A stretch of DNA of 64,000 bases. Source: Elusimicrobiales bacterium. Its GTDB lineage: Bacteria; Elusimicrobiota; Elusimicrobia; Elusimicrobiales; UBA9959. The first letter of the stretch is position 1; the number at the start of each line of letters is the position of its first letter. Made by a program: the position numbers and the translations under genes. Location of the stretch: the NCBI GenBank assembly GCA_028713125.1, contig JAQTOU010000002.1:398583-462582 (forward strand). The letters are read 5' to 3'. This document shows positions 45,706 to 64,000 of this stretch, one piece after another. The notes under the pieces were generated by a model, which saw only the letters and a program-made list of their open reading frames with translations, did no database searches and was not told the origin of the DNA.

Positions 45706-48700
45706 ATGAGCTCATTCACCAAAATAATCCTTGCGGCGGTCCTGTTCGCCGCTTCTTCTGGCTTGGTCTCGGCGGCTCCTCCCACGCTGAAGGTTCATAT
45801 CCAAAAATCTGACTTGAGCCCCGTCCAGTACGTGACGGTCGCCGCGATAGAATTCGGCATGAACGGCCCTTCGACTTACACCCAAGTAGGGCTTACCGAC
45901 ATCGGCGGCGATGTGACCTTTACTCTCTCCAGCGGAACATACGGAAGGAGCTATAACCTCTACTACAGCTCCCACGGCTTTTCTCCTTCCATCTCCGATC
46001 AGTTCAATAACCCGGAATACGACCCTAACAGGTATGTGTGGGCTATGGGTTCTCAGGCGTATTTTTCCACTTTTACTATAACCCAGCTCGCTCCGTCCGA
46101 AGTAGGCGGAAGGCTGATACAGCAGTTTATAGGCGCTTCTACGGGTACGGTGCTGTTCGGCGGCGTTTACAATATGGTCTCCCAGATGCAGGGTGGTTCG
46201 GGTATTGTTCTTACAAATTCCGTTGCCGGATCCACCGATACCCTGGTGGTTGATAACGTGCCGTTCGCTGACGCTAACACTTACAATATCGGCCTTTACG
46301 ACCCGAAAAAGAATAAAGGTATCGGCCGAAACGTTATGACGGCCTTGAGCGCGGGGACTCCCGTGATCGCCTATCTTGCCGCCAGCAATGCCGCCCTTAA
46401 CTTTGACCAGTCGGTCCCCCCTGCCAGGGTAGAAACCAAGACGCAGCAGGGCGGGGAACCTACCGCCGGCGCGAGCGTAGAGGGCGTGCTGATGAGCACC
46501 AATTCCACGCCTATAGGCTATATGGGCCTTGAAGTGAAAGGCTGCGGCGGGTCGTACAATTGGCAGACTTGGGCGCATGCCGACCAGAACGGCCGCTTCC
46601 AGCTTTACGGCCTTACCCCCGGCGTCACCTACTACGTCAACGCCATGGGCGGCTGCACCTGGAACAATGACACGCACGAAAGCAAATGCTATGCACCTTT
46701 CAGCAGCCCCAATTATAAATTGAACGATATGTGCACCGGGGTAGATAATTCCCTGGCAACGCCGAATGACATCGTTTACAGCGTGGCCAACAGTTCGGAA
46801 GTTATATATAAGATAATTACCCTTGATGAAATGCCCAGGAGCATAGGGCAGATCCGTGTTTACGTCAGGTCCACCTCGGGCGTCCCGATGCCCAATTCCA
46901 ATGTGAATATAAACCCGGACGGCTCGCCGTGGCCCAATAACCCGACCAGCTGCCAGAGCACCAACTTCTTCAATAACTATAGTTCCAGCGCCGGTTACTC
47001 CAACCTTAATGTAAATACCTCTGCCACCGGCTACGCCCTTTTGGACGGGCTGCCCAGCGGTAACTACACCCTGAACGTAAATACTCCTTTCTCTAATAAT
47101 AGCGGCGGCCCTTCCGCGCCCTTCAACGGGAACGGCGACGACTTTACCGCCTTCGGCATGAATGGCGGCGGCCCCGGGATGGATTGGACCCAGGCCCACT
47201 GTTCCGGCACCGGCAAGAACGATTACCGTATTACCATTGATACCGACCCGGTCACCAATGGCGGGCAGACTTTCCATATTTACAATAGCAGCGGCAGCCA
47301 CGTTCAGTTCGCCGCCGGCGGCGCTATCGTAACCGATGGAAGCGGCGTCAATATGTCCTCTATTACCTATATAGTGGAAGCCGGCGCCATCAATATGTCC
47401 GGACTGGTCAGGGGCACGCTCCGTTTCCCCGGTATAACCGATCTCAGCAACAACCCGGTAACGATATCCGTGTTCCCGCAGTGCATGAATATGGGCCCCG
47501 GCAGCAGCTGCCCTCCCGGCAACTTATATTCCGAGGTCCGCAGCGGAGCAAGCAGCTACGATTACTCCATAAATGTCTCCAGCGGCTACTCCTATTATAT
47601 GAATGTGACCGCCAGCGGCTGGGGCCGCGTAAACCGCGGCGGGGGTAATAATAATATCAACCTCGCTTCGACCGGTACGGCCGTAGTAGACATGGACTTC
47701 GTCCCGGCCGGCTCGATCTCCGGAACCGTTTATAAACCCGGCGGGACGGAGATCTTTACTCCATCCTCCAACCAGTGGGTCTGGATAGACGCTAACAGCA
47801 ATAACGGCTGGACCGGCACGCAGCTTCAGAAGGACGGGACTTTCGCCATGAACGACGTCCTGCCCGGAGTGAACCGGATCAGGATAAACGTCAGCGGCGG
47901 CGGTCCGGGCGTTACCACTTTTAACTACGCCCTTCCGAATCCCGCTCCTTCCGTTATGGTTACCGCGAACTCTTCGACCACGCTTAACCTTAACCTTGTT
48001 AAGGCCAATTATGTGGGCGTCGATGTTTTCATATCCTCTTTGCCGGCGCGGAGCATGATGAAAACCGGCAGGGAAACCGTGCTCGGGTTCAAGGTAATTC
48101 CCCTGCCTTCCGGCACCGTGCTTAAGGGCGAAACTATAGCCAAAATGCTTACCGGCGGAGACGAGGAAGAGATGCGTATGAACTATTCTTCCGCGACCCT
48201 CCCCGGCGATGAGACCGGGCGCTGCGGCAGCCCCTGGCCCGGCGGTTTCTGCGCGATGAGTTTCCCGTCGCCGGCTGTTTATGACTTCTACCTGATGCGC
48301 GCCGGCGATATGGGCAAAGGGGAAGGAGCCTCGGCTGACAGCCCTTATCCTCACTTCACGCTTATCAGTTCTTCCAAGAACGTTGTGATAGATGACGCCC
48401 ATGCAAAGGGCCTCGTTCGCCCCGGGCAGGGCGTAGGTTTATCCAGCGGCGTTGTTGTAAATCTTACCCCGTCTACGAACCAGCATGACAGGGGCAATGC
48501 GACCCTTGCCGGGCGCGTCACTGCCGCGAACTTCTTCAGGAAAACGGACTATGAAGCCACCGGCGGAGACTTCGAGAACTTTGTAAAGTATCTCCCTGTC
48601 CTTTCGCTCTACGACGCTAACGGAGTTTTTGCCGCGGCGGGCGTAGTGCTGCCGCCTCCCGACTATATAGCCACGCATGACCTGAACAACGACTTCCAGA

Positions 48701-50715
48701 CCAAATACGCCGAGAGCTACGAAGCGTTCTCAGCGCTATTAGGCGGATCTCCGACCGGCTACGGCTTCGAGATCCGCGCGCTTGCCCCGTCGACCTGTTA
48801 TACCGCAGTACTGACTACCCCCAACTACCCGCCCTACCAGGAAAAGGTCTGTATGGGAGTTAACGGTTCGACAAAAACAGTGACCACCATAAACATGGAT
48901 ACCGCTGTGGGCGCGGGCGCCACGCTTTCGGGCGTGGTGACCACCACCGGAACTCCGGTGAAGCTGGCCAATGCCGAGATACAGATCTCCGGCGAAGGCG
49001 TAGATACCCGGTCGGTAGTTACCAGCTCGGTCGGCTACTACAAGTTCGAGGGTCTGCCCGAGGGCGCGGTAAGGATAAAGGTTTCGCTGAGCGGCTACTC
49101 CGCGAGCGAAGCCGAGGAAAGCCTTGTCGGCCATAATACCTATACGCAGAACTTCGCGCTGTTCCCTGCCGACGGCTCAATAACCGGCACGGTCTACTCG
49201 CAGAAGCTGCCTTTCTCCAAGGTACAGCCGGGAGCCATCATAGTGGCCTATGACGATACTTATAACGTCAATAACCCGACCAAGCCGCTGCCCCTGATGA
49301 AGACCATGACGGGCTCGGACGGAACGTACAAACTGGAAAACCTGATCGCCGGCGACGTCTATAAAGTGTTCCTTAAAGTCCCCGGCAAGTATACGCTGAA
49401 CCAGACGACTACGGCCGCGGCCGGTATTGTCGCCGGGGTTGACTTCACCATGCTGGCGAAGCCCCTGGACCTGGAGATATTCGCCAAAAAGGTCGGCGAT
49501 GATGCCACGGGCTCTTATGAGTTCACGGTACTCAACCCGCAGGACTTCAAGCAGGGCGAGGCAAGGTGGGCGCCCCAGACCGGTTTCTCGTTCGGCGCGG
49601 CTACCGTGCTCAACCTGGAGAAGCTCTCCAGCGGCGAACTGCGCGGCTCGATACCGCTTAGCTCGCTCGCCTCTAACATAACTTACATCCTGCAGGGCAA
49701 TGCCACGTCTTATTCCAATAAGACCGTTTCCAGGCAGATCCTGTTCGGTAAAGCCTACAAAGGCAGCGCCGAGCAGCATATCGACGACACTATCCTGGGT
49801 GACGACTCCGACGACGGTTTCGGCCGCAAGAGCAATGAGGCCCCCATGGATAAGAGCGGTGACGACGCCTCGGCCCTGATGTTCCCGGCCGGCGCTGTGC
49901 AGGTGATCTCTTCCGGGGCGATCCCGACCTGCTCTTTCAAGGGCGAGGGCAAGGATTCCCCCGCGGTGGCCGATAAAGTAGCGGCGCTGGGCGCGGACGC
50001 CTTCGCCGGCAACCTTTATACCGTGGACATGACCAGCGCGGTCATCAATACCGGCAAGGAAATAGAGCTGACGCTGGCTTATGACAAGAGCACGTCCAAC
50101 CTTAACGACCTGTCAGTGTCTCAGTATAATGACACCACCGCCAAGTGGGAACAGGTCCCCGGCGTGGCTACTATTAACCCGGTGAAAGGCACGGTGAAAG
50201 TAAAGCTCAAGAAGCTTGCCTCGGTGCTTTCCAGGCCTAACGGCTATGTGAGCGTCTCCGATGGCCGTCAGTACGTGGTGAGGCCGCAGTCGGGCGGGAG
50301 CAGCAGCTCCGCCGGCACGTTCGCGGTGGTCAGGCCCTCCATCGCCGGGAACGCTTTCGCCGGCAAAAAGATAAAGGTGTTCAACTACCCGAACCCCTTC
50401 AACCTGAAGGACAAGGCCATCTCCAATAATAACGGCGCGGCCCTGCCCGGCACGGTCAACGGCACGGTGATACACGTAGAGGTTCCCGCCGGTAACGGCG
50501 GCGCGGGCCATGTGAAGATCTACACCCTGTCCGGCGAGCTTGTGAAGGATATTAAAGTGGACTTCACGGACGGCGCCTACAACTACGTGGGCTGGGACGG
50601 CCACAATGCCGGCGGCCAGGAAGTCGCCAACGGCGTGTATTACGGCGTCGTGGAGATGTCCGGCAAGTCCGTCAAACGCGAAGACGCCACCTTCAAGATG
50701 GCCGTGATAAAGTAG
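45706..50715 (+). CDS. giant secreted surface protein with CarboxypepD_reg-like beta-sandwich repeats and a T9SS-type (FlgD-Ig-like) C-terminal domain
   Basis: 1669 aa; signal peptide MSSFTKIILAAVLFAASSGLVSA; several modules of the type G.V....G.P...A.I......T.SDG.Y.L..L..G.Y.V (e.g. GVVTTTGTPVKLANAEIQISGEGVDTRSVVTSSVGYYKFEGLPEGAVRIKVSLSGY); S/T/N/G-rich. Confidence 0.8.
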   Translation: MSSFTKIILAAVLFAASSGLVSAAPPTLKVHIQKSDLSPVQYVTVAAIEFGMNGPSTYTQVGLTDIGGDVTFTLSSGTYGRSYNLYYSSHGFSPSISDQFNNPEYDPNRYVWAMGSQAYFSTFTITQLAPSEVGGRLIQQFIGASTGTVLFGGVYNMVSQMQGGSGIVLTNSVAGSTDTLVVDNVPFADANTYNIGLYDPKKNKGIGRNVMTALSAGTPVIAYLAASNAALNFDQSVPPARVETKTQQGGEPTAGASVEGVLMSTNSTPIGYMGLEVKGCGGSYNWQTWAHADQNGRFQLYGLTPGVTYYVNAMGGCTWNNDTHESKCYAPFSSPNYKLNDMCTGVDNSLATPNDIVYSVANSSEVIYKIITLDEMPRSIGQIRVYVRSTSGVPMPNSNVNINPDGSPWPNNPTSCQSTNFFNNYSSSAGYSNLNVNTSATGYALLDGLPSGNYTLNVNTPFSNNSGGPSAPFNGNGDDFTAFGMNGGGPGMDWTQAHCSGTGKNDYRITIDTDPVTNGGQTFHIYNSSGSHVQFAAGGAIVTDGSGVNMSSITYIVEAGAINMSGLVRGTLRFPGITDLSNNPVTISVFPQCMNMGPGSSCPPGNLYSEVRSGASSYDYSINVSSGYSYYMNVTASGWGRVNRGGGNNNINLASTGTAVVDMDFVPAGSISGTVYKPGGTEIFTPSSNQWVWIDANSNNGWTGTQLQKDGTFAMNDVLPGVNRIRINVSGGGPGVTTFNYALPNPAPSVMVTANSSTTLNLNLVKANYVGVDVFISSLPARSMMKTGRETVLGFKVIPLPSGTVLKGETIAKMLTGGDEEEMRMNYSSATLPGDETGRCGSPWPGGFCAMSFPSPAVYDFYLMRAGDMGKGEGASADSPYPHFTLISSSKNVVIDDAHAKGLVRPGQGVGLSSGVVVNLTPSTNQHDRGNATLAGRVTAANFFRKTDYEATGGDFENFVKYLPVLSLYDANGVFAAAGVVLPPPDYIATHDLNNDFQTKYAESYEAFSALLGGSPTGYGFEIRALAPSTCYTAVLTTPNYPPYQEKVCMGVNGSTKTVTTINMDTAVGAGATLSGVVTTTGTPVKLANAEIQISGEGVDTRSVVTSSVGYYKFEGLPEGAVRIKVSLSGYSASEAEESLVGHNTYTQNFALFPADGSITGTVYSQKLPFSKVQPGAIIVAYDDTYNVNNPTKPLPLMKTMTGSDGTYKLENLIAGDVYKVFLKVPGKYTLNQTTTAAAGIVAGVDFTMLAKPLDLEIFAKKVGDDATGSYEFTVLNPQDFKQGEARWAPQTGFSFGAATVLNLEKLSSGELRGSIPLSSLASNITYILQGNATSYSNKTVSRQILFGKAYKGSAEQHIDDTILGDDSDDGFGRKSNEAPMDKSGDDASALMFPAGAVQVISSGAIPTCSFKGEGKDSPAVADKVAALGADAFAGNLYTVDMTSAVINTGKEIELTLAYDKSTSNLNDLSVSQYNDTTAKWEQVPGVATINPVKGTVKVKLKKLASVLSRPNGYVSVSDGRQYVVRPQSGGSSSSAGTFAVVRPSIAGNAFAGKKIKVFNYPNPFNLKDKAISNNNGAALPGTVNGTVIHVEVPAGNGGAGHVKIYTLSGELVKDIKVDFTDGAYNYVGWDGHNAGGQEVANGVYYGVVEMSGKSVKREDATFKMAVIK
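50368..50712 (+). other. C-terminal sorting-type domain (T9SS type-A CTD / FlgD Ig-like pattern)
   Basis: KIKVFNYPNPFN....HVKIYTLSGELVKDIKV......YNYVGWDGHNAGGQEVANGVYYGVVEMSGKS...FKMAVIK matches the YPNPF ... IYd..G..V ... WDG.n..G..v.sGVY pattern of Por-secretion C-terminal domains. Confidence 0.6.
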
Positions 50716-50741: not shown

Positions 50742-51650
50742 ATGAAATATAAAATATGGCTTTCAGCGGCTTTAATGCTGGCAAATACGGCGGCTTACGC
50801 CTCCGGCCCCGGGACCACCGGCGCTGCGTTCCTCAAAGTGGGAGTGGGGGCCAGGGAACTGGCCCTCGGGTCCGCGGCGAGCGTGCTTACCGAGGGCGCG
50901 AACGCGGCTAACTGGAACCCCGGCAAACTCGCCGAGGTGAAGGGCAAGAACCTGAGCGCGAGCTACAATATGCTCTTCATCGACGAGTCTCAGGGCGCGC
51001 TCGCCTACGCTACCCCGCTCAGCGGCGGGAGCGCGGTGGTCGGCGCGGGTATCAACTACCTGACCGTCTCGAATATCGAAAAGCGGGCCAGCGATACCAA
51101 TACCCCTGATTCGAAGTTCAGCAATAATAACATGGCCTTCACTCTGTCCTATGCCCGGCCCGAAGTAAAGCCCGGCCTGGCCCTGGGCGCGAACCTGAAG
51201 TACATCTCGCAGAAACTGGACACGGCGGACGATAAAGCCATAGCGCTGGACCTCGGCTCCACCTACAAGGTTAACGACACCTGGACCGCCGCTTTCGTCA
51301 TGCAGAACCTTGGCAGCAGCATAGGTCCGGATAAACTGCCGCTTACCTTCAAGGGCGGCGCGGCCAGGAGTTTCCTGGACGGGAAGCTGGCCGCCGGGGC
51401 GGACCTGGACTGGCTGGCCCAGGACGAGCGGTTCTACCTGTCTTTGGGCGGGGAGTACCTGCTGAACAAGAATTTCGCCTTCAGGGCGGGCTACCAGTTC
51501 GGCCACAGCGCGGATAAGCTGGGCAGCGGCCTGGTGGGGCTCGGCGCAGGCATCGGCCTCAAGTTCGACCGCTTCGCGCTCGATTACGCCTATGTGCCTT
51601 TCGGCGACCTGGGCGATACGCACAGGATGACGCTTGGATTTAACTTTTAG
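50742..51650 (+). CDS. PorV/PorQ-like (UPF0164-like) outer-membrane barrel
   Basis: 302 aa; signal peptide; GPGTTGAAFLKVGVGARELALGSAAS......NWNPGKLA N-terminal signature; C-terminal ..HRMTLGFNF; starts 27 nt after the CTD-bearing gene. Confidence 0.7.
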   Translation: MKYKIWLSAALMLANTAAYASGPGTTGAAFLKVGVGARELALGSAASVLTEGANAANWNPGKLAEVKGKNLSASYNMLFIDESQGALAYATPLSGGSAVVGAGINYLTVSNIEKRASDTNTPDSKFSNNNMAFTLSYARPEVKPGLALGANLKYISQKLDTADDKAIALDLGSTYKVNDTWTAAFVMQNLGSSIGPDKLPLTFKGGAARSFLDGKLAAGADLDWLAQDERFYLSLGGEYLLNKNFAFRAGYQFGHSADKLGSGLVGLGAGIGLKFDRFALDYAYVPFGDLGDTHRMTLGFNF

Positions 51651-51761: not shown

Positions 51762-52985
51762 GTGAAAAAAATATTACTTTCAGCGCTTTTGCTCGCGCCG
51801 GCCTGCGCCGGGGCCAAAGGTTTCGAACTCCAGGGCAAGCTCGATCTTTTCGGGGGCCAGTACTTTTTTCAGAACCAAAACGGAGCTTTTAACGGCTACG
51901 GCGTGCTGGACGCCCAACTGGCCAAAAGCCAATCGTCCAGTTCCGGTTATTTCATCAGCCTCCGTTCGATGTACACCGGCTTCAAGCAGGTGAACGAACT
52001 GGCCGGCGGCGGAACGCTTTTCCAGCAGAGCCTGGACAATTCCCTCGGCTTCAAATGGATAAGGCGCTATGAAGGCGGCTATTCCTTCAAGCCGCGCGTC
52101 GGGATAAAGAGCCAGCTTTTCAGGGAGACCAAGGACGAGAAATGGGGCAAAGGCCTTTACGACCTTACCCGCTACGAGGCCGGCCTGACGCTGGAGCGCA
52201 AGACGCGCCTCGGCCTGTCCACGCCGTGGATCTACCAGTTCTCCTGGGACGTCTATTATAACCGCTATACCCGCTTCAAGACCCTGGCCAGCCAGTACGG
52301 GCAGGAACTCGCCGCGCCCAATCCCGGCAGCCGTACCCTCGACACCGTCACCAACCAGTTCTCTTACGACAGCGAGTTCGACCTGCCGAACTTCGTCCGC
52401 CTGGACCTCTTCGCAGCCGTATCCCTGGTCGGCTACCAGGACCAGAAAGTCATAAACGCGGACGGCAACTACCTCTCCTCCATGCGCTCGGATTCCTACC
52501 AGGCGCTTAATGTAGGGCTCAGCAAGCGCTATAACGATATAGACTTCCTCGGAGGGGTGCGCCCTGTGATGAGCGTCCGCCTCGGCCTGGCCAATAATTT
52601 CTCCAACCAGAGCCACCTGGATACGGACCCGGCCCACCTCAGGTTCACGCGCGCTTATTACGATTACTGGGAGGAGCGGCTTTCTCCCGGCGCCCAGTTT
52701 ACTTTTATAGATTCCGGCCTCATCGCCCGCCTGAATTATGAATTCGCCATCCGGCGCTATACCGGCAGGCTGGCCCAGAAATCAGACGGCGCTTACAGCC
52801 GCGACAAGCTCGGCCAGTATTCGGGGAGCTTCACCGCCGAAGCCGCCTACCCGCTGTTCCGCCACATTGATATCAAGCTTCAGGGCACCTGGGCGAACTC
52901 GAGCTCCAACAACCACTACGAGCAGGTCTACCGGTACAATTATTACAGTTCGATGTATTTCGCGGGTCTGGAATGGAGGTTTTAA
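51762..52985 (+). CDS. putative outer-membrane beta-barrel protein, uncharacterised family (paralog 2 of 3)
   Basis: GTG start at 51762 (VKKILLSALLLAPACAGA signal peptide) preferred over the ATG at 51705; ETKDEKWGKGLYDLTRYEAG aligns with ETKDEKWGDGLFDYTTLSFG in the ORF at 56237; ends ..YFAGLEWRF. Confidence 0.55.
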   Translation: MKKILLSALLLAPACAGAKGFELQGKLDLFGGQYFFQNQNGAFNGYGVLDAQLAKSQSSSSGYFISLRSMYTGFKQVNELAGGGTLFQQSLDNSLGFKWIRRYEGGYSFKPRVGIKSQLFRETKDEKWGKGLYDLTRYEAGLTLERKTRLGLSTPWIYQFSWDVYYNRYTRFKTLASQYGQELAAPNPGSRTLDTVTNQFSYDSEFDLPNFVRLDLFAAVSLVGYQDQKVINADGNYLSSMRSDSYQALNVGLSKRYNDIDFLGGVRPVMSVRLGLANNFSNQSHLDTDPAHLRFTRAYYDYWEERLSPGAQFTFIDSGLIARLNYEFAIRRYTGRLAQKSDGAYSRDKLGQYSGSFTAEAAYPLFRHIDIKLQGTWANSSSNNHYEQVYRYNYYSSMYFAGLEWRF

Positions 52986-56236: not shown

Positions 56237-57472
56237 ATGGTAAATAAACATAATCCCTTTATAGTGCCGTCCCTGATCCTTCTTTCACTTTTAGGCCCTG
56301 CCGCGCCGCTCTACCCGGCGTCGAAGATCCTTACCGTCGCCGACGTCTCCCTCCTGGGCGGGAAATATTTCCTCGATTCCCAGGCCGCTTCTTTCCAGGG
56401 CCGGGTGGACGCTTTTGTGTCCCCGACTATCAAGCTGTCGGAGAACAGCGATCTTATCCCGGTTTACTCCGGCAACTATTCCGGTACCCAGGACATACAG
56501 GAGCTCGCCGGCGGCGGCGTGCTTACCCGGAAGCGGATGACCAATACTTTTTCCCTTAAATATATCTACACAGACGAGTTCAACAAGTACAAGCCGCGCC
56601 TCTCCTACTCGAAGGCGGGCATAAAGGAAACCAAGGACGAGAAGTGGGGGGACGGCCTTTTCGACTATACCACCCTGTCCTTCGGTTTCGAGGCCGAGCA
56701 GGAGCGCCCGCGCGGGACCTTTACCGAATCCTACGACTATTACAAGGTGACCTACCCCAATTACAGCACACTGCTCTCGCAGTCGCAGTCCGTCTTCAAC
56801 GACACCACTACCTTTAACCAGCTTTCCACCAATGCCGGCGCGAACCCGCTGGACAATACCAGCCACCGCCTGGGCTTCGTTTACTCCTGGTTCCCGGAGC
56901 CGCTCAATATGAAGGCCGGCTACGATTTCACCTACCGCACCTACGGCGACCAGGCCGTGGCGGCCAGGCCCGTCACGGGGCAATCTCCTTTCAAGAGCGA
57001 CAAGCGCGCCGATATCATGCAGAACTTCAGCCTCAGGGCCAGCCGCGCCCTTAAGCCGCTTTTCCTCAGTGCCGGGGCGCGCCTGGGCTGGCTCAGCTCC
57101 AACCAAGGCTCGTACGATTCCACCCGCAGCAAGTATATGGAAGATTATTACAGCTATGTGGACCTTTCTTTAAGCCCGGCGATGACGCTCGCCCTCCCGA
57201 GCGGCGCGCAGTTCAATTTCGGCGTGGACTGGCGGCAGGTCTGGTACCAGGGCCGCCCGGCTCAGGCCGATACCGGCACCTACGGAAAAGCGGAGATCAA
57301 GCAGACCTGCTGGCTTACCTCCCTTTCCGTCCGCTACCCGCTGGCCAACAGGTTCTTCGCGCGCGCGGCCTATAACTACCAGGTTTCGAGCTCGAACATG
57401 CATTACGAGGAGAGCTACCGGTACAATTACCGGGCCAGCACCTATCTGATGGGGATAGAGTGGGAGTTCTGA
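56237..57472 (+). CDS. putative outer-membrane beta-barrel protein, uncharacterised family (paralog 3 of 3)
   Basis: 411 aa; signal peptide; paralogous to the ORFs at 51762 and 14197; ends ..YLMGIEWEF. Confidence 0.55.
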   Translation: MVNKHNPFIVPSLILLSLLGPAAPLYPASKILTVADVSLLGGKYFLDSQAASFQGRVDAFVSPTIKLSENSDLIPVYSGNYSGTQDIQELAGGGVLTRKRMTNTFSLKYIYTDEFNKYKPRLSYSKAGIKETKDEKWGDGLFDYTTLSFGFEAEQERPRGTFTESYDYYKVTYPNYSTLLSQSQSVFNDTTTFNQLSTNAGANPLDNTSHRLGFVYSWFPEPLNMKAGYDFTYRTYGDQAVAARPVTGQSPFKSDKRADIMQNFSLRASRALKPLFLSAGARLGWLSSNQGSYDSTRSKYMEDYYSYVDLSLSPAMTLALPSGAQFNFGVDWRQVWYQGRPAQADTGTYGKAEIKQTCWLTSLSVRYPLANRFFARAAYNYQVSSSNMHYEESYRYNYRASTYLMGIEWEF

Positions 57473-57531: not shown

Positions 57532-60500
57532 ATGCGAAAGATAAAAAACATTTTCATCAACCTGCTGGGGGCGGCGCTTTTCGCCGCCGGCTCCGCCGGG
57601 CTGGCCCAGGCCCAAAGCCCCTTTACCGGGAATTTCGCCGCCGGCGGCGTAACCTATGACGGCGGCCCCTACCAGATCGGGATGATGCAGCGCGGCGCCG
57701 GGATCGCCGTGGATACTATAACGATAAACGGTCCCTATACTTACACCGTAGCGGTTTCTTCGAACGGCGGCTCGGCCGACTACCTTATAGCGAAGTACGA
57801 TCCCGCCGGTGTGGTGCTTTCTTCCGTTTCTTTCTCCAAGGGCCCGTCGAATATGGAGCAGCCGGCCATAGCTGTCGGACCTGACGGCTCCGTCTATGTC
57901 GCGGCTGACGTGGCCGAGCAGCCCATGACGTATTCTTATTCTTTTGACAGCCTCCTGCTTAAATTCAACCCCAGCCTGGGTTTCGTGTCCTCCACCACTT
58001 TCAGGGTCGCCGCTGGCGGCGCAAACGACGGCTTTTATGCCGTGGCCACCGACGCAGCAGGAAATGTTTACGCGACTGGAACCTCCAATAACGGGACAGG
58101 CGGCAGCGGGAACGGCGAGATAGTCACTTTGAAATACGATCCCGCCCTGGTCTTCATCTCGTCCGCCGTCTTTAATATCGAAGGGGCCGGCCTCCATGAT
58201 ATAGCCCGCGGCATCGCCGTAAATTCCGCGAACGTTTATGTGGCCGGGATGTCCTATACCGCGCCCGGGATCAATCCTGTCTGCACCATACTCAGGTACA
58301 CCCAGGCGATGACTTTCGTTTCCTCCGCCGCTTTTGCCGGCGGCTTCGGGGCCTGTAATGCCATAACGGCGGTGCAGAGCGCCGGGGCCGTCTTTGTGGC
58401 CGGTTATCTGGACGCCGGTTCTTTCAACACGGCTTCCATAGTGGCGAGATATACCAACACCCTGGTGTTCGAGTCCTCGGCCGGCTATAACGGCGGAGGC
58501 TATAACATAGCCAACGGCCTGGCGGCCGACGGGGCGGGCGGCGTTTACGTGACCGGCAGGTACGACGGCGTCACCGAGAACTTCGTCCTGTTCGCCTACG
58601 ACAATTACCTGAACTTTATCTCTTCCACCGGCTATGACAGCGGCTACTCCGATATAGGTTATGGCCTGGCCGCGGACGCCGCCCGGAACGTGTATGTCGC
58701 CGGTTATTCCAATAACGGCATTAACGACGTCGTGAAAACTATCAGGTACACCCAGGCGGACCTCGCACCCACGTTTCCCGCCGCGGCGACGCAGCGCGTC
58801 TGGATCGGCGGCGGCGCCGACCTGGCCAGCGAACCCGGTAACTGGCTGAACGGTCTGCCCCAGCCCGGCGACGGCATACTTTATGACGCGGCCTATATCC
58901 CGAATGCCAGCCTGACATGGGACCTCGGGGCCTCCGTCCCGCTTTCTTCCGTCACTGTCAGCGGCGCCCTTCCGAGCGGCACGCTGATAGTCGCTTCGCC
59001 GCTGCTTGTCACCGGCGATCTCGTTTTGAACTCGCCTAACGCTGCCGTGCTCTTCGATTCGGGGAGCGGGATCTCCAGCGTCAGCGGTGAGGTTAAGGTA
59101 GACGCCGGAGTTTTCTCCGTCACCGCCTCCACGTTCATCTCCGTCACGACCTTTACCGTAAACGGCGGGACCTTCGACCTGGCCTCGGCCTATTTCATGG
59201 GCAACAGGCTGACCGTCAACAGCGGGGCGGCCCTCTCTCTCCGCGTCGCCGACCCGCTCTTTAATACTGAGCCGCCGGTCCTTACCAGCACCAGCCCTAC
59301 CTCAGCGCTCAAACTGACCGTGGACGGAACGGTCGACGTTTCCAGCTGCGTCATCGGGAGGACCTGGCATAAGGGCATCGATTTCGGGCCCGCCGTTTCC
59401 TTCACTAATTTCTCCAACGTTCTTTTCCAGGGGCCCCTGCTCCCCGGAACCACGGCTATTTATTTCGAGGGCGGCGCGCCTTACGTCACTTTCAGCAGCG
59501 TAAGTTTCGCCGACGCCAATATCTATTTCAACGTGAACGCCAGCCTGCTGAGCCCCGGCGCGAGCATAACCATGCTGTACTTCTCCGGCCCCAGGGCCGG
59601 CGCCTCCTTCGAGAACGATCCCTTCAGCTACGTGCAGTGGGGGCCGCCGGTAGTATATATTTCCACCGCCGACGTTTCGCCGGCCGCCTATTTAGCCGGC
59701 CAGGAAGCCGCGGCGCTAAGGATAACGCCTTATACTCTTTCGGGTTCGGCAGCTTTCACCGGGATGCAGATAGCCGTAAATCCAGCCGGCGCCTACACCG
59801 ATATAGCCTCGGTCGCCGTCTATAAAGACACCGACCTGGACGGAATCTGGAACGGCCAGGTGGACCAACTCCTGGCCGGCGGCCCGGTCACCTCCGCCAC
59901 TTTCAATTTCGACCTCAGCGGCGGGCAGCCCCCGGCCGCGCCCGGGCGCAAGCCCGCGGGGTTCCCCGGCTCTCCGGGCGGGATCGTGGATACGAACCCT
60001 ATCGGTCTTTTCATAACCCTGACGCCCGCTGTCGCGGCCGTGGGCAATAATGTCAATGTTTCTGTGGTCTCTTCCAACTCCTTTACCACAGGCGGCGACA
60101 TGGCGCAGCAGGCTATCTACCCCGTGGTTTCGGCTCCCAAACTGGTCAACTACCTGGCCGGCGTGACGACCCTCGCCGCCCCTGCGGGCGCCAACCTCAA
60201 TACGCTCAGCCTGGCCTGGACCTATCCGCAGGACATCGCCGCCGGGCATTACATAGTCCGCTATAGCACTAACCCGGCTGACCTCGCCGACCCCGATTCG
60301 ACCGATAACCAGACGGTGACTGATATCAGCGGCGTGACGGCCGGCTCCGTGGACAGCCTCGATCTATACGAGCTTCCCGTGGTGACCGACGGGCTGCGCG
60401 TATTGCCGCGCTACGCCGCGGTCTGGCTCTATAACGGGACGAGCACGTCCTCGGTTTCAAATTTGGTGCGGAACCTTTATTTCCCCGTGTCTTCCGTGAG

Positions 60501-63500
60501 CGACCAGGACGCCAGGCTCCTTACCCGCTCCGGGATGTCCGCCCAGCCCGAGAACGGCCCCAGGTTCGCCCGCGGCCCCGCCGGGCTCTATTCAGCCCTC
60601 AGCTTCTACGGCGACGCGAACTATCTCGTCACCCTCAACACCCCGTACGGCGGCTCGCACTTCTATTACGACCCTTTCGCCCAGCTGGAGCTTAAGGACC
60701 TGGCCGCCGACCAGGACGGGAATGCTTACGGCTTTATCCAGAGGGGCGGCGACACGCCCCTGGTGGTCAAGTTCGGCCCCGGCGGCGCCGTGCTGTGGAC
60801 CAGGACTTTCATTACCGCCTCCACCGAAACCGCGAAGGCGCTGGTCTACGGCAATAACGCCGTATACGCGGCCACCGAATACGAGAACGGTTCCAACGGC
60901 CGGGACTATAAGATCCGCAAGCTCAGCGCCGCCGACGGCACCGGGGACGTGGAAGCCTCCTACGACAGCGCGCCGGGCACGGGCGTTTACGACGAGGTGG
61001 ATAGCCTCGCCTTCGCGGCGGATCCCTCGTTCCCTTCCGGCGGAAATATTTACGCCGCCGGCGCCAGCGGGCAGTACCCGCTGAACGGCAGGCTGCATAA
61101 ATTCACGGATAGCGGTTCGACCCTGGCCCCTTCCCTCGCCGGAACCTGGCCCGTGCAGTATTACAACCCGGGCGGCGGGGATTCCCGCGCCCTTTTCGTT
61201 AAAGAGGACGGGAACGGCAACCTGGTGGTGGCCGGCTCCGAGCAGCGCTATGACCTCAACCAGGGCCTCAATATCTGGCTGAACAGGTACAGCCCCTACG
61301 GCGGCCAGATGCTCGCCGCGCGCTATAATAACGCGCAGGCCAACGCCGACGACGTCCCCACCGGCCTGGACTTCGACAGCTTCGGCAATATCTACGTCTC
61401 CGGCTACACCGACATGTGGAACATGTCGCAGGGTTACAATATGCTTCTGGCCAAGTTCGCTCCCGGCGGCCAGCTTATTTCCGGGCGCGTCTACGATTCC
61501 GGCTCCGGCGGCTACGACTGGGGCATGGCCGTGCAGGTCTCAACCGACAATTACGCGCACGTTGCCGGCGTGTTCGACGGATCCTTCGGTGTCTACTCCG
61601 TGCCGCTGGGCGCGGCCAACGCGCAGTTCTTCACCGCCGCGGAAGGCCCCTATACGGCCACCGTGGACCTGACGTGGAACTACCCCGGGCGCCTGCCCGC
61701 CGGCTCGACTTTCTCCGTGCAGTACAGCACGGATGCGTCTCCGGCCTGGAACCGCGCTTCGGCGCAGATAGTCGCCAGCACCGGGCCCCTTTCCGCCGGT
61801 TCCGTGCAGCTTCGCCGCGTGGGAGAACTGACGGCGCTGCGCTACCCCGGCGCGGGTGGCGGCACCGCGGGACAGGAGACCCGCGGCAATCTCTACAAGT
61901 TCAAGGTCTGGATAACCAGCGGCGGCCTCACTACCGAACTGCCTGAGGCGCAGGCTTTCGCGAGGACGCCCTCCGCCTACGACAATACCCAGTATTTCGG
62001 GCGCGAGCGCCTTTCCTATATGAGCGGCCTGGGCGGCCCGGCCAGCGCCATAGCCGTGGACGGCCCCTATGTCTACCACGCCTTCGGCGGCTATTCCGAC
62101 GGCGGCTCGGCCGGTTTCGGCCTGCGCAAATATAACACCGACCAGTACCTGGAATGGACCAAGTTCTTCAATAACAGGAACAACCGGGCTTACTCTGTGG
62201 GCAATATGGCCCGCGACGCGGCCGGCAACTTCTACCTGGTGGGCAGCCAGAGAACCGTGGACGTCTCACCGACCGGGCCTGAATACCTGGTGGCCGGCAA
62301 GAACATGTGGATAGCCAAACTGAACGCGGACGGGGACTTCGTGTGGTCCTACGCCGTAGACGCCTCGGGCATAAACATGATGGACGAACTATACGACGTG
62401 GCCGTGCAGGGGAGCTCCCTTTACGTGGTCGGCGTCACCTCGACTTCCTCCAGCGGCATGAACGTGCTGGCGCGGAAGTACGATATCTCACCGTCGACCT
62501 ATCCGGCCCTGGTGTGGACCTACACCGAGAACGGGACCGGGAACGGCGACGACTTCGGCTACGGCATAGACGTGGGCACCGGCGCTGTTTACCTGTCCGG
62601 GACCGTGTTCAATACTGACAAGGATATCCTGGTGCGGGCCCTTGATAAGACCAGCGGAGCCGCCGCCGGCGGGTCCATAGTGATAGCTTCCGCGAGCGGC
62701 GACGATGAAGGCTACGACCTGGCCGTCACCACGACCGCGCCGGTTTACATCTACGTGGCCGGCTCCATAGCCGGCACGGCGAACGACGCGGCGCTCTTCA
62801 AATACACCCCCGCCGGCGCTTCCGTATGGAGCCGCTCTTATAACGGCAGGGCCGGCCTGGACGACGCCTACCAGGCGGTCAAGCTGGACGGCAGCGGGGT
62901 GCTGGTCGCCGGCTACGAAACCACTTACGACCAGGGCAGGAACAGCCTTTACCGCGAGTTCGACCATTCCGGAACCGAGGACTGGAGCCGCAGCTTCGAC
63001 TTCTCCTACAGCGGCGACGACGAGGCTTACTCCCTGGCCGTGGACGTTTCGGGACGGGTCTATTCGGCCGTTTCCCTGTGGAGCGACAAGCCCGGTTTCT
63101 ACTATTTCCCCGAGCCCAGTTTCAACCTCATGGCTTCGCAGAATTACGTGCCCGGCTCGGTGCGCCTGGACTGGATGAACCAGTACAACATGCCCGCCAG
63201 CATGCCCTTCGCCGTACAGTATTCCACCTACGACCTGGGCGTGGCCTGGAGCACGGCCGCCGCGCAGGTGCGGTACCTGTCGGACTCCGCCAAGCTGGAA
63301 GGCATGAACCTGTCCCGCGTGATCTACGGCCTCGACAGCGGCCGCGACGCGCAGGGCATGTCCACCGGCCCCCTCTATCACTTCAAAGTATGGTTCTCCA
63401 CGGAAGCCGGGGTCTATACGGCCGTGCCCGGGGCGGCCTCGGCCCGCGCCTCTGACGGCTGGGCAAATGAGAACATGGTGATGTATCCCAATGAAGCCAA

Positions 63501-64000
63501 GCTCTTCGTCATAAACAGCGGCCAGCAGTCGGCGGCGGCCTATTACGGCGAGAAAGAGTTCCCCGGCATAGCGCGCGACGCTTCCGGCAATATCTATACC
63601 GTGGCGAACATGGATTGGAACGGCAACGGCGGTTTCGCCGTTAAGAAGTTCAATTCCGCCTATATGCCGCTCTGGACCAAATATTACGCCCCCGGGGAAT
63701 GGTTCCAGGTAAAGGCCAACAGGCTGGACATAGACGCGGCCGGCGATCTCTATATAACCGGTTACGAGCGGGATCCTTACGGTTCTACCGGCAAGGACCT
63801 TTTCGTCATGAAGTTCGGCGCCACCGGGGTGGTCTGGAAATCGACCTATAACTTCATCGGCGGTGACGACACCGGCTACGGCGTGGCGGTCGGCGCTTCC
63901 GGCGACGTGTTCGTGGCCGGTTCAGTAGACGCCGGCGACGGCAATATAGACATCCTGGCGGCCAAATTCGGTCCCTCCGGCGCCCTTCTTTCCACCGCGA
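57532..64000 (+). CDS. giant secreted SBBP (beta-propeller) repeat protein, 3-prime partial (continues beyond the window)
   Basis: Not in the supplied track because it has no stop in the window. I translated the frame from the ATG at 57532 (GGAGA Shine-Dalgarno; signal peptide MRKIKNIFINLLGAALFAAGSAGLAQA) to 64000 and met no stop codon (more than 2150 codons). It has many SBBP-type repeats (D..GNVYVTG.....D....KY...G). All other-frame ORFs listed here look like GC-driven shadows. Confidence 0.75.
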   Translation, partial: MRKIKNIFINLLGAALFAAGSAGLAQAQSPFTGNFAAGGVTYDGGPYQIGMMQRGAGIAVDTITINGPYTYTVAVSSNGGSADYLIAKYDPAGVVLSSVSFSKGPSNMEQPAIAVGPDGSVYVAADVAEQPMTYSYSFDSLLLKFNPSLGFVSSTTFRVAAGGANDGFYAVATDAAGNVYATGTSNNGTGGSGNGEIVTLKYDPALVFISSAVFNIEGAGLHDIARGIAVNSANVYVAGMSYTAPGINPVCTILRYTQAMTFVSSAAFAGGFGACNAITAVQSAGAVFVAGYLDAGSFNTASIVARYTNTLVFESSAGYNGGGYNIANGLAADGAGGVYVTGRYDGVTENFVLFAYDNYLNFISSTGYDSGYSDIGYGLAADAARNVYVAGYSNNGINDVVKTIRYTQADLAPTFPAAATQRVWIGGGADLASEPGNWLNGLPQPGDGILYDAAYIPNASLTWDLGASVPLSSVTVSGALPSGTLIVASPLLVTGDLVLNSPNAAVLFDSGSGISSVSGEVKVDAGVFSVTASTFISVTTFTVNGGTFDLASAYFMGNRLTVNSGAALSLRVADPLFNTEPPVLTSTSPTSALKLTVDGTVDVSSCVIGRTWHKGIDFGPAVSFTNFSNVLFQGPLLPGTTAIYFEGGAPYVTFSSVSFADANIYFNVNASLLSPGASITMLYFSGPRAGASFENDPFSYVQWGPPVVYISTADVSPAAYLAGQEAAALRITPYTLSGSAAFTGMQIAVNPAGAYTDIASVAVYKDTDLDGIWNGQVDQLLAGGPVTSATFNFDLSGGQPPAAPGRKPAGFPGSPGGIVDTNPIGLFITLTPAVAAVGNNVNVSVVSSNSFTTGGDMAQQAIYPVVSAPKLVNYLAGVTTLAAPAGANLNTLSLAWTYPQDIAAGHYIVRYSTNPADLADPDSTDNQTVTDISGVTAGSVDSLDLYELPVVTDGLRVLPRYAAVWLYNGTSTSSVSNLVRNLYFPVSSVSDQDARLLTRSGMSAQPENGPRFARGPAGLYSALSFYGDANYLVTLNTPYGGSHFYYDPFAQLELKDLAADQDGNAYGFIQRGGDTPLVVKFGPGGAVLWTRTFITASTETAKALVYGNNAVYAATEYENGSNGRDYKIRKLSAADGTGDVEASYDSAPGTGVYDEVDSLAFAADPSFPSGGNIYAAGASGQYPLNGRLHKFTDSGSTLAPSLAGTWPVQYYNPGGGDSRALFVKEDGNGNLVVAGSEQRYDLNQGLNIWLNRYSPYGGQMLAARYNNAQANADDVPTGLDFDSFGNIYVSGYTDMWNMSQGYNMLLAKFAPGGQLISGRVYDSGSGGYDWGMAVQVSTDNYAHVAGVFDGSFGVYSVPLGAANAQFFTAAEGPYTATVDLTWNYPGRLPAGSTFSVQYSTDASPAWNRASAQIVASTGPLSAGSVQLRRVGELTALRYPGAGGGTAGQETRGNLYKFKVWITSGGLTTELPEAQAFARTPSAYDNTQYFGRERLSYMSGLGGPASAIAVDGPYVYHAFGGYSDGGSAGFGLRKYNTDQYLEWTKFFNNRNNRAYSVGNMARDAAGNFYLVGSQRTVDVSPTGPEYLVAGKNMWIAKLNADGDFVWSYAVDASGINMMDELYDVAVQGSSLYVVGVTSTSSSGMNVLARKYDISPSTYPALVWTYTENGTGNGDDFGYGIDVGTGAVYLSGTVFNTDKDILVRALDKTSGAAAGGSIVIASASGDDEGYDLAVTTTAPVYIYVAGSIAGTANDAALFKYTPAGASVWSRSYNGRAGLDDAYQAVKLDGSGVLVAGYETTYDQGRNSLYREFDHSGTEDWSRSFDFSYSGDDEAYSLAVDVSGRVYSAVSLWSDKPGFYYFPEPSFNLMASQNYVPGSVRLDWMNQYNMPASMPFAVQYSTYDLGVAWSTAAAQVRYLSDSAKLEGMNLSRVIYGLDSGRDAQGMSTGPLYHFKVWFSTEAGVYTAVPGAASARASDGWANENMVMYPNEAKLFVINSGQQSAAAYYGEKEFPGIARDASGNIYTVANMDWNGNGGFAVKKFNSAYMPLWTKYYAPGEWFQVKANRLDIDAAGDLYITGYERDPYGSTGKDLFVMKFGATGVVWKSTYNFIGGDDTGYGVAVGASGDVFVAGSVDAGDGNIDILAAKFGPSGALLSTA

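What the first reader, a model, noticed from the sequence alone, without database searches (positions are those of the whole stretch)
45706..64000. FecR-like / 400-aa barrel / PorV-like / giant-cargo cassette occurs twice: candidate undescribed surface-protein export or anchoring system (larger locus)
Seen in sequence: this co-directional block encodes seven proteins. They are a 1669-aa secreted protein with a T9SS-type C-terminal domain, a PorV/PorQ-like barrel, a ~400-aa barrel candidate, two tandem signal-peptide FecR-domain proteins, another ~400-aa barrel candidate, and an SBBP-repeat protein of more than 2150 aa that runs off the window. The same four families recur 30 kb away at 11574-18373. 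Paralogy is clear by eye in three families. The FecR-like proteins share F[EQ]VRTP.AVCAVRGT[ED]F, D.[FH]G..VR.[ED].....RP and a C-terminal GR[NK]ID motif. The barrels share ETKDEKWG.GL[YF]D and [VK][TF][YF]PNY[ST].LLS, and end in an aromatic residue. The PorV-likes share GPGT..A.F[LM]K..VGARE..LG. Established knowledge: classical FecR is a cytoplasmic-membrane anti-sigma factor that works with an ECF sigma and a TonB-dependent receptor, and PorV is the T9SS shuttle that binds cargo CTDs. Here the FecR-domain proteins carry cleavable signal peptides instead of an anti-sigma/TM part. No ECF sigma, TonB receptor or T9SS core gene (sprA/sov, porK/L/M/N, porU) is present in the 64 kb. Inference: the FecR-like protein and its partner barrel may form a module that, together with the PorV-like barrels, exports or anchors giant beta-rich surface proteins. 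I know of no described system with this gene content.
Basis: partly seen in the sequence, partly recalled or inferred. Interest (0 to 1): 0.8.

Follow-up and report, generated by a model that had tools for sequence, protein, structure and literature searches.

The report
Conserved Elusimicrobia outer-membrane fibre cassette
A four-gene set (a secreted FecR-like protein, a new 16-strand outer-membrane barrel, a very large surface-fibre protein with a T9SS-like tail, and a PorV-like barrel) is conserved in fixed order across the phylum Elusimicrobiota, where no known protein-secretion system has been detected, so it is a good candidate for an undescribed way of exporting or anchoring giant surface proteins.

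Summary
The genes are real. The window comes from an Elusimicrobiales MAG. It holds three FecR-like/barrel pairs, not two cassettes.

- Unit A is at 11574-15399.
- Unit B1 is at 45706-54617, in the order fibre, PorV-like, barrel, FecR-like.
- Unit B2 starts at 54759, in the order FecR-like, barrel, giant fibre; the PorV-like gene would lie beyond the window.

The ~400-aa proteins model as 16-strand barrels (pLDDT 84) with no Pfam or NCBIfam family. The FecR-like proteins have a PupR/FecR-type N-domain, a signal peptide in place of the anti-sigma/TM part, and a 250-aa C-domain with no fold match.

In 78 related loci, 81 of 85 barrels have a FecR-like gene adjacent. 47 of 48 complete fibre genes are followed by a PorV-like gene. 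Only these four families are conserved around each other. The "cargo" is itself a conserved ~1600-aa core family.

The barrel family looks phylum-restricted. TXSScan found no secretion system of any type in Elusimicrobium minutum.

An export/anchoring function is inferred, not shown. Locus A lacks the giant cargo. T9SS core absence could not be tested genome-wide here. No paper found describes the cassette.

The parts
45706..50715 (+). Unit B1 fibre protein, 1669 aa. It has a Sec signal peptide, several prealbumin/CarboxypepD_reg-like domains and a C-terminal FlgD-Ig/T9SS-type-A-like CTD ending KMAVIK.
   Evidence: Pfam. CTD scans. It aligns end-to-end with ~1600-aa orthologues and with the C-terminal 1600 aa of the giants. 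PGAP name: 'carboxypeptidase regulatory-like domain-containing protein'.
50742..51650 (+). Unit B1 PorV/PorQ-family outer-membrane barrel, 302 aa, ending in F.
   Evidence: NF033709 at 156.6 bits against cutoff 90, but below the PorV and PorQ equivalog cutoffs. PDB PorV 6H3I_F at E=4e-12.
51762..52985 (+). Unit B1 16-strand barrel paralogue, 407 aa. The ORF is open from 51705.
   Evidence: BLASTP to the 411-aa barrel at 5e-34. No Pfam or NCBIfam hit. The start comes from the called gene.
52989..54617 (+). Unit B1 secreted FecR-like protein, 542 aa. It starts 3 nt after the barrel gene.
   Evidence: PF04773 at 58 bits. LipL45/Lsa33-like by NCBIfam. The pairing of this barrel type with this FecR type recurs in 8 related loci.
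54759..56198 (+). Unit B2 secreted FecR-like protein, 479 aa. The ORF is open from 54648. It has an N-terminal FecR/PupR-type domain, a helical linker and a 250-aa C-domain with no fold match. G126-T127 is invariant.
   Evidence: P0101 is 100% identical. AF2 pLDDT is 86.8. Foldseek matches 6OVK_R and 4M0N for the N-domain only. Alignment A2. The profile aligns the GT to the corresponding position of the solved FecR-family domain 4M0N. A promoter-like site lies at 54657-54685.
56237..57472 (+). Unit B2 16-strand outer-membrane barrel, 411 aa. It belongs to a new family that looks phylum-restricted.
   Evidence: AF2 pLDDT 84.1 and pTM 0.78. Only generic OMP barrel hits, TM about 0.45. No Pfam hit in any of 27 members. 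515 representatives in 1.84 billion proteins. All named homologues are Elusimicrobiota.
57532..64000 (+). Unit B2 giant fibre protein, cut by the window end. It has N-terminal SBBP repeats. It is 3938 aa in the source genome, with CarboxypepD_reg and FlgD_ig at the C-terminus.
   Evidence: Pfam SBBP. Full gene in L079. In the closest relative, L001, a PorV-like gene follows the giant.
11574..13427 (+). Unit A secreted FecR-like protein, 617 aa.
   Evidence: PF04773 at 50 bits. BLASTP to the B paralogues at 1e-18 to 1e-19. A promoter-like site lies at 11539-11567.
13417..14184 (+). Unit A 255-aa exported protein of unknown family, ending in F. It is possibly a small barrel. Its start codon is uncertain.
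   Evidence: No Pfam or NCBIfam hit. Orthologues sit between FecR and barrel in L056, L059, L060 and L063.
14197..15399 (+). Unit A barrel paralogue, 400 aa.
   Evidence: BLASTP to the 411-aa barrel at 9e-13. It is a member of alignment A1. A terminator-like site lies at 15429-15443.
15536..16978 (+). PorV/PorQ-family barrel fused to a proline-rich linker and C-terminal HEAT repeats, 480 aa.
   Evidence: NF033709 at 100 bits. HEAT_2 at 55 bits. BLASTP to the 302-aa PorV-like protein at 4e-26.
17018..18373 (+). 451-aa exported fibre-like protein with an internal repeat. It is not a homologue of the giant cargo. Whether it belongs to the cassette is uncertain.
   Evidence: It has a weak N-terminal match to the Bdellovibrio MAT fibre N-domain (3e-6, below cutoff). 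It has no hit in related loci. The sequence is shown.

Best explanation
Each unit is a self-contained outer-membrane module that puts one large fibre protein on the cell surface.

**Proposed mechanism**
- All four products carry Sec signal peptides.
- The fibre is a conserved ~1600-aa string of prealbumin-like beta-sandwich domains. Giants carry SBBP extensions at the N-terminus. The fibre ends in a FlgD-Ig/T9SS-type-A-like C-terminal domain.
- That domain is bound by the PorV/PorQ-family barrel encoded immediately downstream. This holds the fibre on the surface, as PorQ holds PorZ and PorV holds PorU or shuttles cargo in T9SS.
- The new 16-strand barrel and its periplasmic FecR-like partner form a 1:1 complex. 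This complex acts as the dedicated conduit or assembly factor for that fibre.
- The FecR-like protein would play the periplasmic receptor/plug role that POTRA domains play in TpsB, or that SprF/PorP plays for SprB.

**Shown**
- Gene content and the predicted folds.
- Strict adjacency and fixed gene order.
- Co-duplication of partner lineages.
- Apparent restriction of the barrel family to the phylum.

**Inferred**
- The physical complexes.
- CTD binding by the PorV-like barrel.
- Translocation through the 16-strand barrel.
- Possible self-cleavage of the FecR-like protein at the conserved G-T.
For: **Co-localisation**
- 81 of 85 barrels have a FecR-like gene adjacent on the same strand, median gap 34 nt.
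- 47 of 48 fibre genes with a complete 3' end are followed by a PorV-like gene, median gap 43 nt.
- 58 of 78 barrels are followed directly by a fibre gene.
- Only these four families are conserved across the 78 loci.
- The same order occurs in other classes of the phylum, including the complete genome CP096137.1.

**Partner specificity**
- 411-type barrels pair with 516-type FecR upstream in 71 cases. 426-type barrels pair with 542-type FecR downstream in 8 cases.
- One protein, P0381, is a full FecR-like protein fused in frame to a barrel that lacks its own signal peptide.

**Folds**
- The barrel models as 16 strands with pLDDT 84. The last residue is F or Y in 80 of 85 barrels.
- The FecR-like N-domain matches the PupR cell-surface-signalling domain at rmsd 2.1 over 131 residues.
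- The PorV-like protein matches solved PorV.

**Fibre**
- The CTD motif is conserved in all fibres. It gives consistent weak hits to the CTDs of PorU and PorZ, to TIGR04183 and to FlgD.
- The fibre is a conserved core family.

**Context**
- TXSScan finds no T1-T6 or T9 system in E. minutum.
Against: - There is no experimental or multimer-model evidence for any of the proposed contacts.
- The CTD scores below the TIGR04183 cutoff.
- Fibre/PorV-like pairs also occur without an adjacent FecR-like/barrel pair. The pair is therefore not needed in cis for every CTD protein.
- Unit A has no core fibre next to it.
- A 16-strand barrel could only pass an unfolded chain, whereas T9SS-type CTD cargo is normally exported folded.
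- The FecR fusion is a single case and could be an assembly error.
- T9SS core genes were not searched for in the full source genome.
Confidence: 0.5

Rival explanations
1. These are ordinary T9SS cargo plus accessory genes. The genome would carry a canonical T9SS elsewhere. The PorV-like genes would be extra shuttles or anchors, and the FecR-like/barrel pair would be a lineage-specific accessory comparable to SprF/PorP next to sprB.
For: - A PorV-family barrel and a CTD-like tail are hallmark T9SS parts.
- One related locus, L077, is binned as Ignavibacteria, a T9SS-bearing group.
- The full source genome was not scanned.
Against: - TXSScan detected T9SS only in Bacteroidetes and scored E. 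minutum Pei191 and the termite group 1 genome as zero.
- Reviews restrict T9SS to the FCB superphylum.
- No T9SS core gene lies in the 64-kb window.
- Beyond the four families, no other family is conserved across the 78 related loci. Those loci were not scanned with T9SS models.
- The barrel has no similarity to PorP/SprF models.
Confidence: 0.17
2. This is a sensing or regulatory module. The FecR-like protein and barrel would act like a cell-surface-signalling pair, sensing an external cue or the state of the fibre and controlling it. They would not export it.
For: - The FecR domain fold is that of the PupR/FecR sensors that dock on outer-membrane receptors.
- The G-T site used for self-cleavage in that family is conserved in 76 of 83 proteins.
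- Single-domain response regulators occur near some loci.
Against: - There is no transmembrane helix or cytoplasmic anti-sigma domain, only a cleavable signal peptide.
- No ECF sigma factor lies in the window. No sigma-like family is conserved across the loci; one locus, L066, has a sigma-like ORF upstream.
- The partner barrel has no plug, STN domain or TonB-receptor signature.
- There is therefore no evident route for a signal to reach the cytoplasm.
Confidence: 0.1
3. This is a nutrient-capture or uptake unit. The barrel would be a substrate channel and the FecR-like protein its periplasmic partner. The fibre would be a surface capture protein, loosely like SusC/D-type surface complexes.
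For: - Foldseek's best hits are porins and substrate channels such as OmpT, CymA, OmpG, AlgE and the Occ family.
- CarboxypepD_reg domains also head SusC/Oar-type receptors.
Against: - The fold hits are generic, with TM about 0.45 and 7-12% identity.
- No enzyme or binding-protein genes are conserved in the loci.
- The strict one-to-one link with a conserved 1600-aa fibre and a PorV-like gene is not expected for a porin.
Confidence: 0.08

Closest known systems
T9SS shuttle/attachment parts: PorV, PorQ-PorZ, PorV-PorU and type-A CTD cargo (Bacteroidota)
   Same: - A PorV/PorQ-family 14-strand-type barrel scores above the family cutoff and is similar to solved PorV.
- The fibre ends in an Ig-like C-terminal domain with T9SS-CTD-like motifs, including a terminal K..(I/V)(I/V)K.
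- The likely logic is that a barrel holds a CTD protein on the surface.
   Different: - The phylum lies outside the FCB superphylum, and TXSScan found no T9SS.
- There is one PorV-like gene per fibre, encoded immediately downstream.
- The PorV-like proteins are below both the PorV and PorQ equivalog cutoffs.
- The CTD is below the TIGR04183 cutoff.
- A FecR-like protein and a new barrel are part of the unit.
sprC-sprD-sprB-sprF and type-B-CTD/PorP-like pairs (Flavobacterium, Porphyromonas). The operon details are from my own knowledge; the PorP-anchoring paper appears only as a reference.
   Same: A giant adhesin gene sits beside a dedicated outer-membrane barrel gene needed for its secretion or anchoring.
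   Different: - The barrel has no sequence similarity to PorP/SprF.
- The CTD is type-A-like, not type B.
- An additional FecR-like partner is present.
FecR/PupR/FoxR cell-surface-signalling anti-sigma regulators
   Same: - The PF04773 domain is present, and its fold matches the PupR C-terminal signalling domain and BDI_1681.
- The G-T motif is conserved at the family's self-cleavage position.
- The partner is an outer-membrane barrel encoded next door.
   Different: - A signal peptide replaces the anti-sigma domain and TM helix.
- There is no STN subdomain. The 250-aa C-domain has no fold match.
- There is no ECF sigma.
- The partner is a plug-less 16-strand barrel, not a TonB-dependent transducer.
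Leptospira LipL45/Lsa33/Lsa19 exported FecR-domain proteins
   Same: They are exported FecR-domain proteins without an anti-sigma part. They are the best NCBIfam hits for all three paralogues.
   Different: - All hits are far below the cutoffs, at 22-50 bits against 250-420.
- The proteins here have ordinary signal peptides rather than conserved lipoboxes.
- The C-terminal domains differ, and no barrel or PorV partner is known for LipL45.
Two-partner secretion (TpsB/FhaC with TpsA)
   Same: A 16-strand barrel is dedicated to one very large beta-rich exoprotein encoded beside it, and a periplasmic receptor element is required.
   Different: - The barrel has no POTRA domains or ShlB/FhaC signature.
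- The fibre has no conserved N-terminal TPS domain. The conserved part is C-terminal.
- TXSScan T5bSS is zero in E. minutum.

Membership tests
Type IX secretion system | PorV/PorQ-family outer-membrane barrel | tested here: met
   NF033709 scores 156.6 and 100.4 bits against a cutoff of 90. PDB 6H3I_F matches at E=4e-12. Both proteins fall below the PorV and PorQ equivalog cutoffs.
Type IX secretion system | Cargo with a type-A CTD (TIGR04183) or type-B CTD | tested here: inconclusive
   TIGR04183 scores 15-19 bits against a cutoff of 23 in five fibres. There are consistent weak hits to the CTDs of PorU, PorZ and M6i. The best PDB hits are the FlgD Ig domain at 5e-5 and the PorU CTD at 0.24.
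Type IX secretion system | Core machinery: SprA/Sov translocon, PorK/L/M/N, PorU sortase | not testable with these tools
   None lies in the 64-kb window. Beyond the four families, no other family is conserved across the 78 loci. Published TXSScan gives 0 for E. minutum Pei191.
FecR-type anti-sigma regulators (cell-surface signalling) | Periplasmic FecR domain (PF04773) with the PupR-like fold | tested here: met
   PF04773 scores 50-60 bits against a cutoff of 24. Foldseek matches 6OVK_R at rmsd 2.1 over 131 columns.
FecR-type anti-sigma regulators (cell-surface signalling) | N-terminal cytoplasmic anti-sigma domain plus a single TM helix | tested here: not met
   The proteins begin with a cleavable signal peptide directly followed by the FecR domain.
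FecR-type anti-sigma regulators (cell-surface signalling) | Cognate ECF sigma factor and a TonB-dependent transducer with an STN domain nearby | tested here: not met
   None lies in the window. Neither is conserved in related loci. The adjacent barrel has no plug or STN domain.
Two-partner secretion (T5bSS) | TpsB barrel with POTRA domains, and TpsA with an N-terminal TPS domain | tested here: not met
   No Pfam or NCBIfam hit was found for any of 27 barrels. The barrel starts right after the signal peptide. The conserved fibre region is C-terminal.
PorP/SprF family T9SS membrane proteins | Match to the PorP/SprF family models | tested here: not met
   No NCBIfam or Pfam family matched at E<=0.01 for the three window barrels. 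None matched at E<=5 for the 27 family members.
Outer-membrane beta-barrel proteins (general) | Signal peptide, closed antiparallel barrel, C-terminal aromatic residue | tested here: met
   The AF2 model has pLDDT 84.1 and about 16 strands. 421 PDB barrel matches have E<=0.001. The terminal residue is F or Y in 80 of 85 barrels.

The most novel reading that the evidence does not exclude
The FecR-like protein, the 16-strand barrel and the PorV-like barrel together form a previously undescribed, self-sufficient outer-membrane secretion and anchoring pathway for giant CTD-bearing fibres. It would work without SprA/Sov, the PorKLMN motor or PorU, in a phylum where no known secretion system is detectable. 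It would be either an evolutionary relative or precursor of T9SS cargo handling, or a new secretion type that reuses the FecR fold as a periplasmic receptor.
Probability: 0.3. Interest if true: 0.9.

Novelty: new variant of a known kind. Interest (0 to 1): 0.72.

Why it matters
- Elusimicrobiota are diderms that encode multi-thousand-residue surface proteins. Standard searches find no outer-membrane protein-secretion system in their cultivated representative. The TXSScan authors themselves noted that such clades may hide unknown systems.
- This cassette is a concrete, phylum-wide candidate for such a system.
- It shows the PorV/CTD pairing operating outside the FCB superphylum, which bears on how T9SS evolved.
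- It shows the FecR fold detached from sigma-factor signalling and coupled to a new barrel family.
- It defines at least two new protein families, the barrel and the FecR-like C-domain.
- It gives a testable four-gene unit small enough for heterologous reconstitution.

Tried and rejected
- **Family scans:** Pfam at E<=5 on 27 barrels and 24 FecR-like proteins gave nothing beyond PF04773. NCBIfam gave nothing for the barrels. It also gave nothing for the N-terminal repeat module fused to some barrels.
- **PDB sequence searches with the fibre:** only prealbumin-like and FlgD domains matched.
- **RNA:** Rfam found no RNA family in the window.
- **Literature:** searches for PorV+FecR, Elusimicrobia+T9SS/type IX, Elusimicrobia+FecR and LipL45+FecR found no description of the cassette.
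- **T9SS core genes:** I could not scan the source genome. No tool gives whole-genome access and I had no query sequences.
- **Complex models:** the structure-prediction cap (2 jobs) prevented any multimer-style test and any model of the fibre.
- **Rejected, chance co-occurrence:** the adjacency counts rule it out.
- **Rejected, classical FecR signalling:** there is no TM or anti-sigma part, no ECF sigma and no TonB receptor.
- **Rejected, LptD-like role for the barrel:** the window has its own LptD-like gene at 36018-38105.

Full report
**Origin and gene content**

The window has 59% G+C. It matches a 729,573-bp contig of an NCBI MAG named Elusimicrobiales bacterium, with locus tags PHV36_05xxx. 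PGAP names the proteins of interest 'carboxypeptidase regulatory-like domain-containing protein', 'PorV/PorQ family protein', 'FecR family protein' and 'hypothetical protein'.

Locus B holds seven co-directional genes.
- A 1669-aa protein has CarboxypepD_reg and a C-terminal FlgD_ig-like domain.
- A 302-aa protein is PorV/PorQ family. NF033709 scores 156.6 bits against a cutoff of 90, and PDB PorV 6H3I_F matches at 4e-12.
- A 407-aa and a 411-aa protein have no family hit.
- Two proteins carry the FecR domain, at 542 aa and 479 aa. The second starts at 54759, not 54648.
- An SBBP-repeat giant is 3938 aa in the source genome and carries CarboxypepD_reg and FlgD_ig at its C-terminus.

Locus A holds five genes.
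- A 617-aa FecR-domain protein.
- A 255-aa protein with no family hit.
- A 400-aa barrel paralogue.
- A 480-aa PorV-family barrel fused to HEAT repeats.
- A 451-aa fibre-like protein.

BLASTP confirms paralogy in three families. The 451-aa protein is not related to the giant cargo. 'Four families recur' is therefore only three-quarters right.

The rest of the window is housekeeping: GrpE/DnaK/DnaJ, SMC, PolA, Rho, RF, MurA, TolB and an LptD-like gene. No ECF sigma, TonB receptor or T9SS core gene is present.

**Structures**

The 411-aa protein was modelled with 27 homologues. The model is confident, with pLDDT 84.1 and pTM 0.78, and is an all-beta barrel. I count 16 strands from the DSSP string. 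Foldseek against PDB returns only generic porin, channel and receptor barrels at TM about 0.45 and 7-12% identity. The fold class is confirmed, but there is no specific relative.

The invariant motifs ETKDEKWG, YPNY, SNQ and SN..E fall in the odd-numbered connections. These are extracellular or lumen-facing loops. That placement is unusual for an OMP and suggests a conserved binding or constriction surface. This is an inference.

The 479-aa FecR-like protein also models confidently, with pLDDT 86.8.
- A beta N-domain spans residues 20-168. It superposes on the PupR cell-surface-signalling domain (6OVK_R, rmsd 2.1 over 131 columns) and on BDI_1681.
- A helical linker follows.
- A 250-aa beta-rich C-domain has no PDB or Pfam match.
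- G126-T127 is invariant. A profile search aligns it to the corresponding position of the solved FecR-family domain 4M0N. That this is the family's self-cleavage site is from my own knowledge. V[RK]GT.F is present in 76 of 83 homologues.

**Comparative genomics**

A profile-guided scan of one genome per GTDB species returned 78 loci. Almost all are Elusimicrobiota, including Elusimicrobium minutum and Endomicrobia. I searched the six-frame ORFs of these loci with HMMs built from the window paralogues. The order FecR-like, barrel, fibre, PorV-like appears on one strand in essentially every locus long enough to show it.

The counts are as follows.
- 81 of 85 barrels have a FecR-like gene adjacent: 70 upstream and 11 downstream, with a median gap of 34 nt.
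- 58 of 78 barrels are followed by a fibre gene.
- 47 of 48 fibre genes with a complete 3' end are followed by a PorV-like gene, with a median gap of 43 nt.

Clustering all ORFs shows that only these four families are conserved across the loci. All other clusters occur in 16 loci or fewer and reflect local synteny.

About ten loci carry, upstream, the second unit in the order fibre, PorV-like, barrel, FecR-like, exactly as at 45706-54617. Four loci carry the unit-A trio FecR-like, 255-aa, barrel.

Partner types are concordant. 411-type barrels always sit with 516-type FecR-like genes (71 pairs). 426-type barrels sit with 542-type genes (8 pairs). The window therefore holds three ancient, co-duplicated module lineages. 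Locus B is two abutting units. Promoter-like sites lie before 45706 and in the 54617-54759 gap, which is consistent with this parse but weak.

**The 'cargo' is a component**

The 1669-aa protein aligns end-to-end with ~1600-aa orthologues in distant lineages. It also aligns with the C-terminal ~1600 aa of the ~3000-aa giants. A 12-sequence alignment has 47% mean column identity. Its recognisable pieces are prealbumin/CarboxypepD_reg-like domains and the terminal FlgD-Ig-like domain.

The last ~100 residues are conserved in every fibre: NYPNPFNLK ... GT.IKY.LP ... IYNLAGELV ... WDG.N ... ASGVY ... K.A(I/V)(I/V)K. They give consistent sub-threshold hits to TIGR04183 and to the CTDs of PorU, PorZ and a T9SS-dependent protease. 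FlgD is the best PDB match. The tail is T9SS-type-A-like in form but fails the curated cutoff.

Other fibre/PorV-like pairs occur without a FecR-like/barrel pair.

**Family breadth**

An exhaustive HMMER search of 1.84 billion representatives found 515 barrel relatives, 240 of them at E<=1e-30. Every named homologue in two word-indexed searches is from Elusimicrobiota. Members from other classes of the phylum show the same neighbourhood, including the complete genome CP096137.1.

One representative, P0381, is a full FecR-like protein fused in frame to a barrel that lacks its own signal peptide. This is a single Rosetta-stone hint. It would place the FecR-like protein on the periplasmic side of the barrel.

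Some barrels carry an unrelated N-terminal ~270-aa repeat module, while a FecR-like gene remains upstream.

**Context in the literature**

TXSScan detected T9SS in 60 of 97 Bacteroidetes genomes and in no other clade. Its Table S3 lists Elusimicrobium minutum Pei191 and the termite group 1 genome as diderms with zero in every column, T1SS through T9SS including T5a/b/c. Reviews place T9SS in the FCB superphylum. No paper in the searchable library links PorV with FecR, or Elusimicrobia with T9SS or FecR.

**Interpretation**

The best-supported reading is a dedicated outer-membrane module for displaying one conserved giant fibre.
- The PorV-like barrel binds and retains the fibre's CTD. This follows from the homology and from strict one-to-one adjacency.
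- The 16-strand barrel with its periplasmic FecR-like partner serves as conduit or assembly factor. This follows from adjacency, translational-coupling-scale gaps, co-duplication, one fusion, and the lack of any other known secretion route in the phylum.
- By analogy, 16-strand TpsB barrels export multi-thousand-residue proteins unfolded.

None of the contacts is demonstrated. The fibre/PorV-like pairs without a local FecR-like/barrel pair, and unit A without a core fibre, show the picture is incomplete.

The main rival is that a canonical T9SS exists elsewhere in these genomes. Published data disfavour it, but it was not excluded here. Signalling and uptake readings lack the parts they would require.

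**Verdict**

The cassette appears undescribed. It combines two known part types (a PorV-family barrel with a CTD-like tail, and the FecR fold) with a new barrel family that looks phylum-restricted and a new C-domain. I classify it as a new variant of a known kind. There is a substantial chance (about 0.3) that it is a distinct secretion pathway.

Noticed in passing
window 15536-16978 (+): A PorV/PorQ-family barrel is fused through a proline/alanine-rich linker to C-terminal HEAT repeats (HEAT_2, 55 bits). The HEAT part would sit in the periplasm. This is an unusual architecture for this family. A ~500-aa PorV-like gene also occurs in L064.
   Followed up: partly
window 17018-18373 (+): A 451-aa exported protein has an internal tandem repeat (AAI(T/S)SGKFGDERV.ISTGAFYGGFNA). 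Its N-terminus weakly resembles the Bdellovibrio mosaic adhesive trimer fibre N-domain (3e-6, below cutoff). It had no relatives in the 78 related loci.
   Followed up: partly
window 36018-38105 (+): A 695-aa protein has an LptD-like N-terminal region (NCBIfam LptD at 1.5e-12, LptC-related Pfam hit, weak CT351-family barrel hit). It is probably the genome's short LptD.
   Followed up: no
window 5229-5537 and 5551-5859 (+): Two tandem paralogous 102-aa ORFs (MIDLKP...VLVYGSRA...LDL.V...) lie in an otherwise ORF-poor kilobase. By eye they look like minimal nucleotidyltransferase (MNT-type) proteins. They were not scanned.
   Followed up: no
window 39738-40238 (+): A 166-aa ORF has a DUF772 transposase domain (42 bits). 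It is probably a transposase fragment, lying between the thymidine kinase and TolB genes.
   Followed up: no
window 4523-4942 (-), 8312-8698 (-), 22734-23117 (+): Three stand-alone single-domain response regulators (Response_reg, 83-93 bits) are scattered among housekeeping genes. Similar small receiver genes sit near cassettes in L060, L064 and L066.
   Followed up: no
P0294, P0268, P0280 (barrel homologues from other Elusimicrobiota); locus L081 1851-3965: Some barrels carry one or two copies of a ~270-aa N-terminal module (W.G.G.T.KASEA.NW..G..P..GD.V.FG...). It has no Pfam or NCBIfam match and sits before the barrel, an autotransporter-like layout. A FecR-like gene is still upstream.
   Followed up: partly
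L056 17532-20972, L058 3-8203, L066 1-4956 (-): Additional large CTD-bearing proteins (829-2253 aa, ending ...K.(V/I)(L/I)..K) are each followed by their own PorV-like gene, without a FecR-like/barrel pair. One PorV-like gene per CTD protein may be a general rule in this phylum.
   Followed up: partly
window 34495-34588 (+): ARAGORN calls a 94-nt tRNA-Val(CAC) inside the Mur-ligase-like ORF (33701-34975). Rfam finds no tRNA there, so it is probably a false positive.
   Followed up: no
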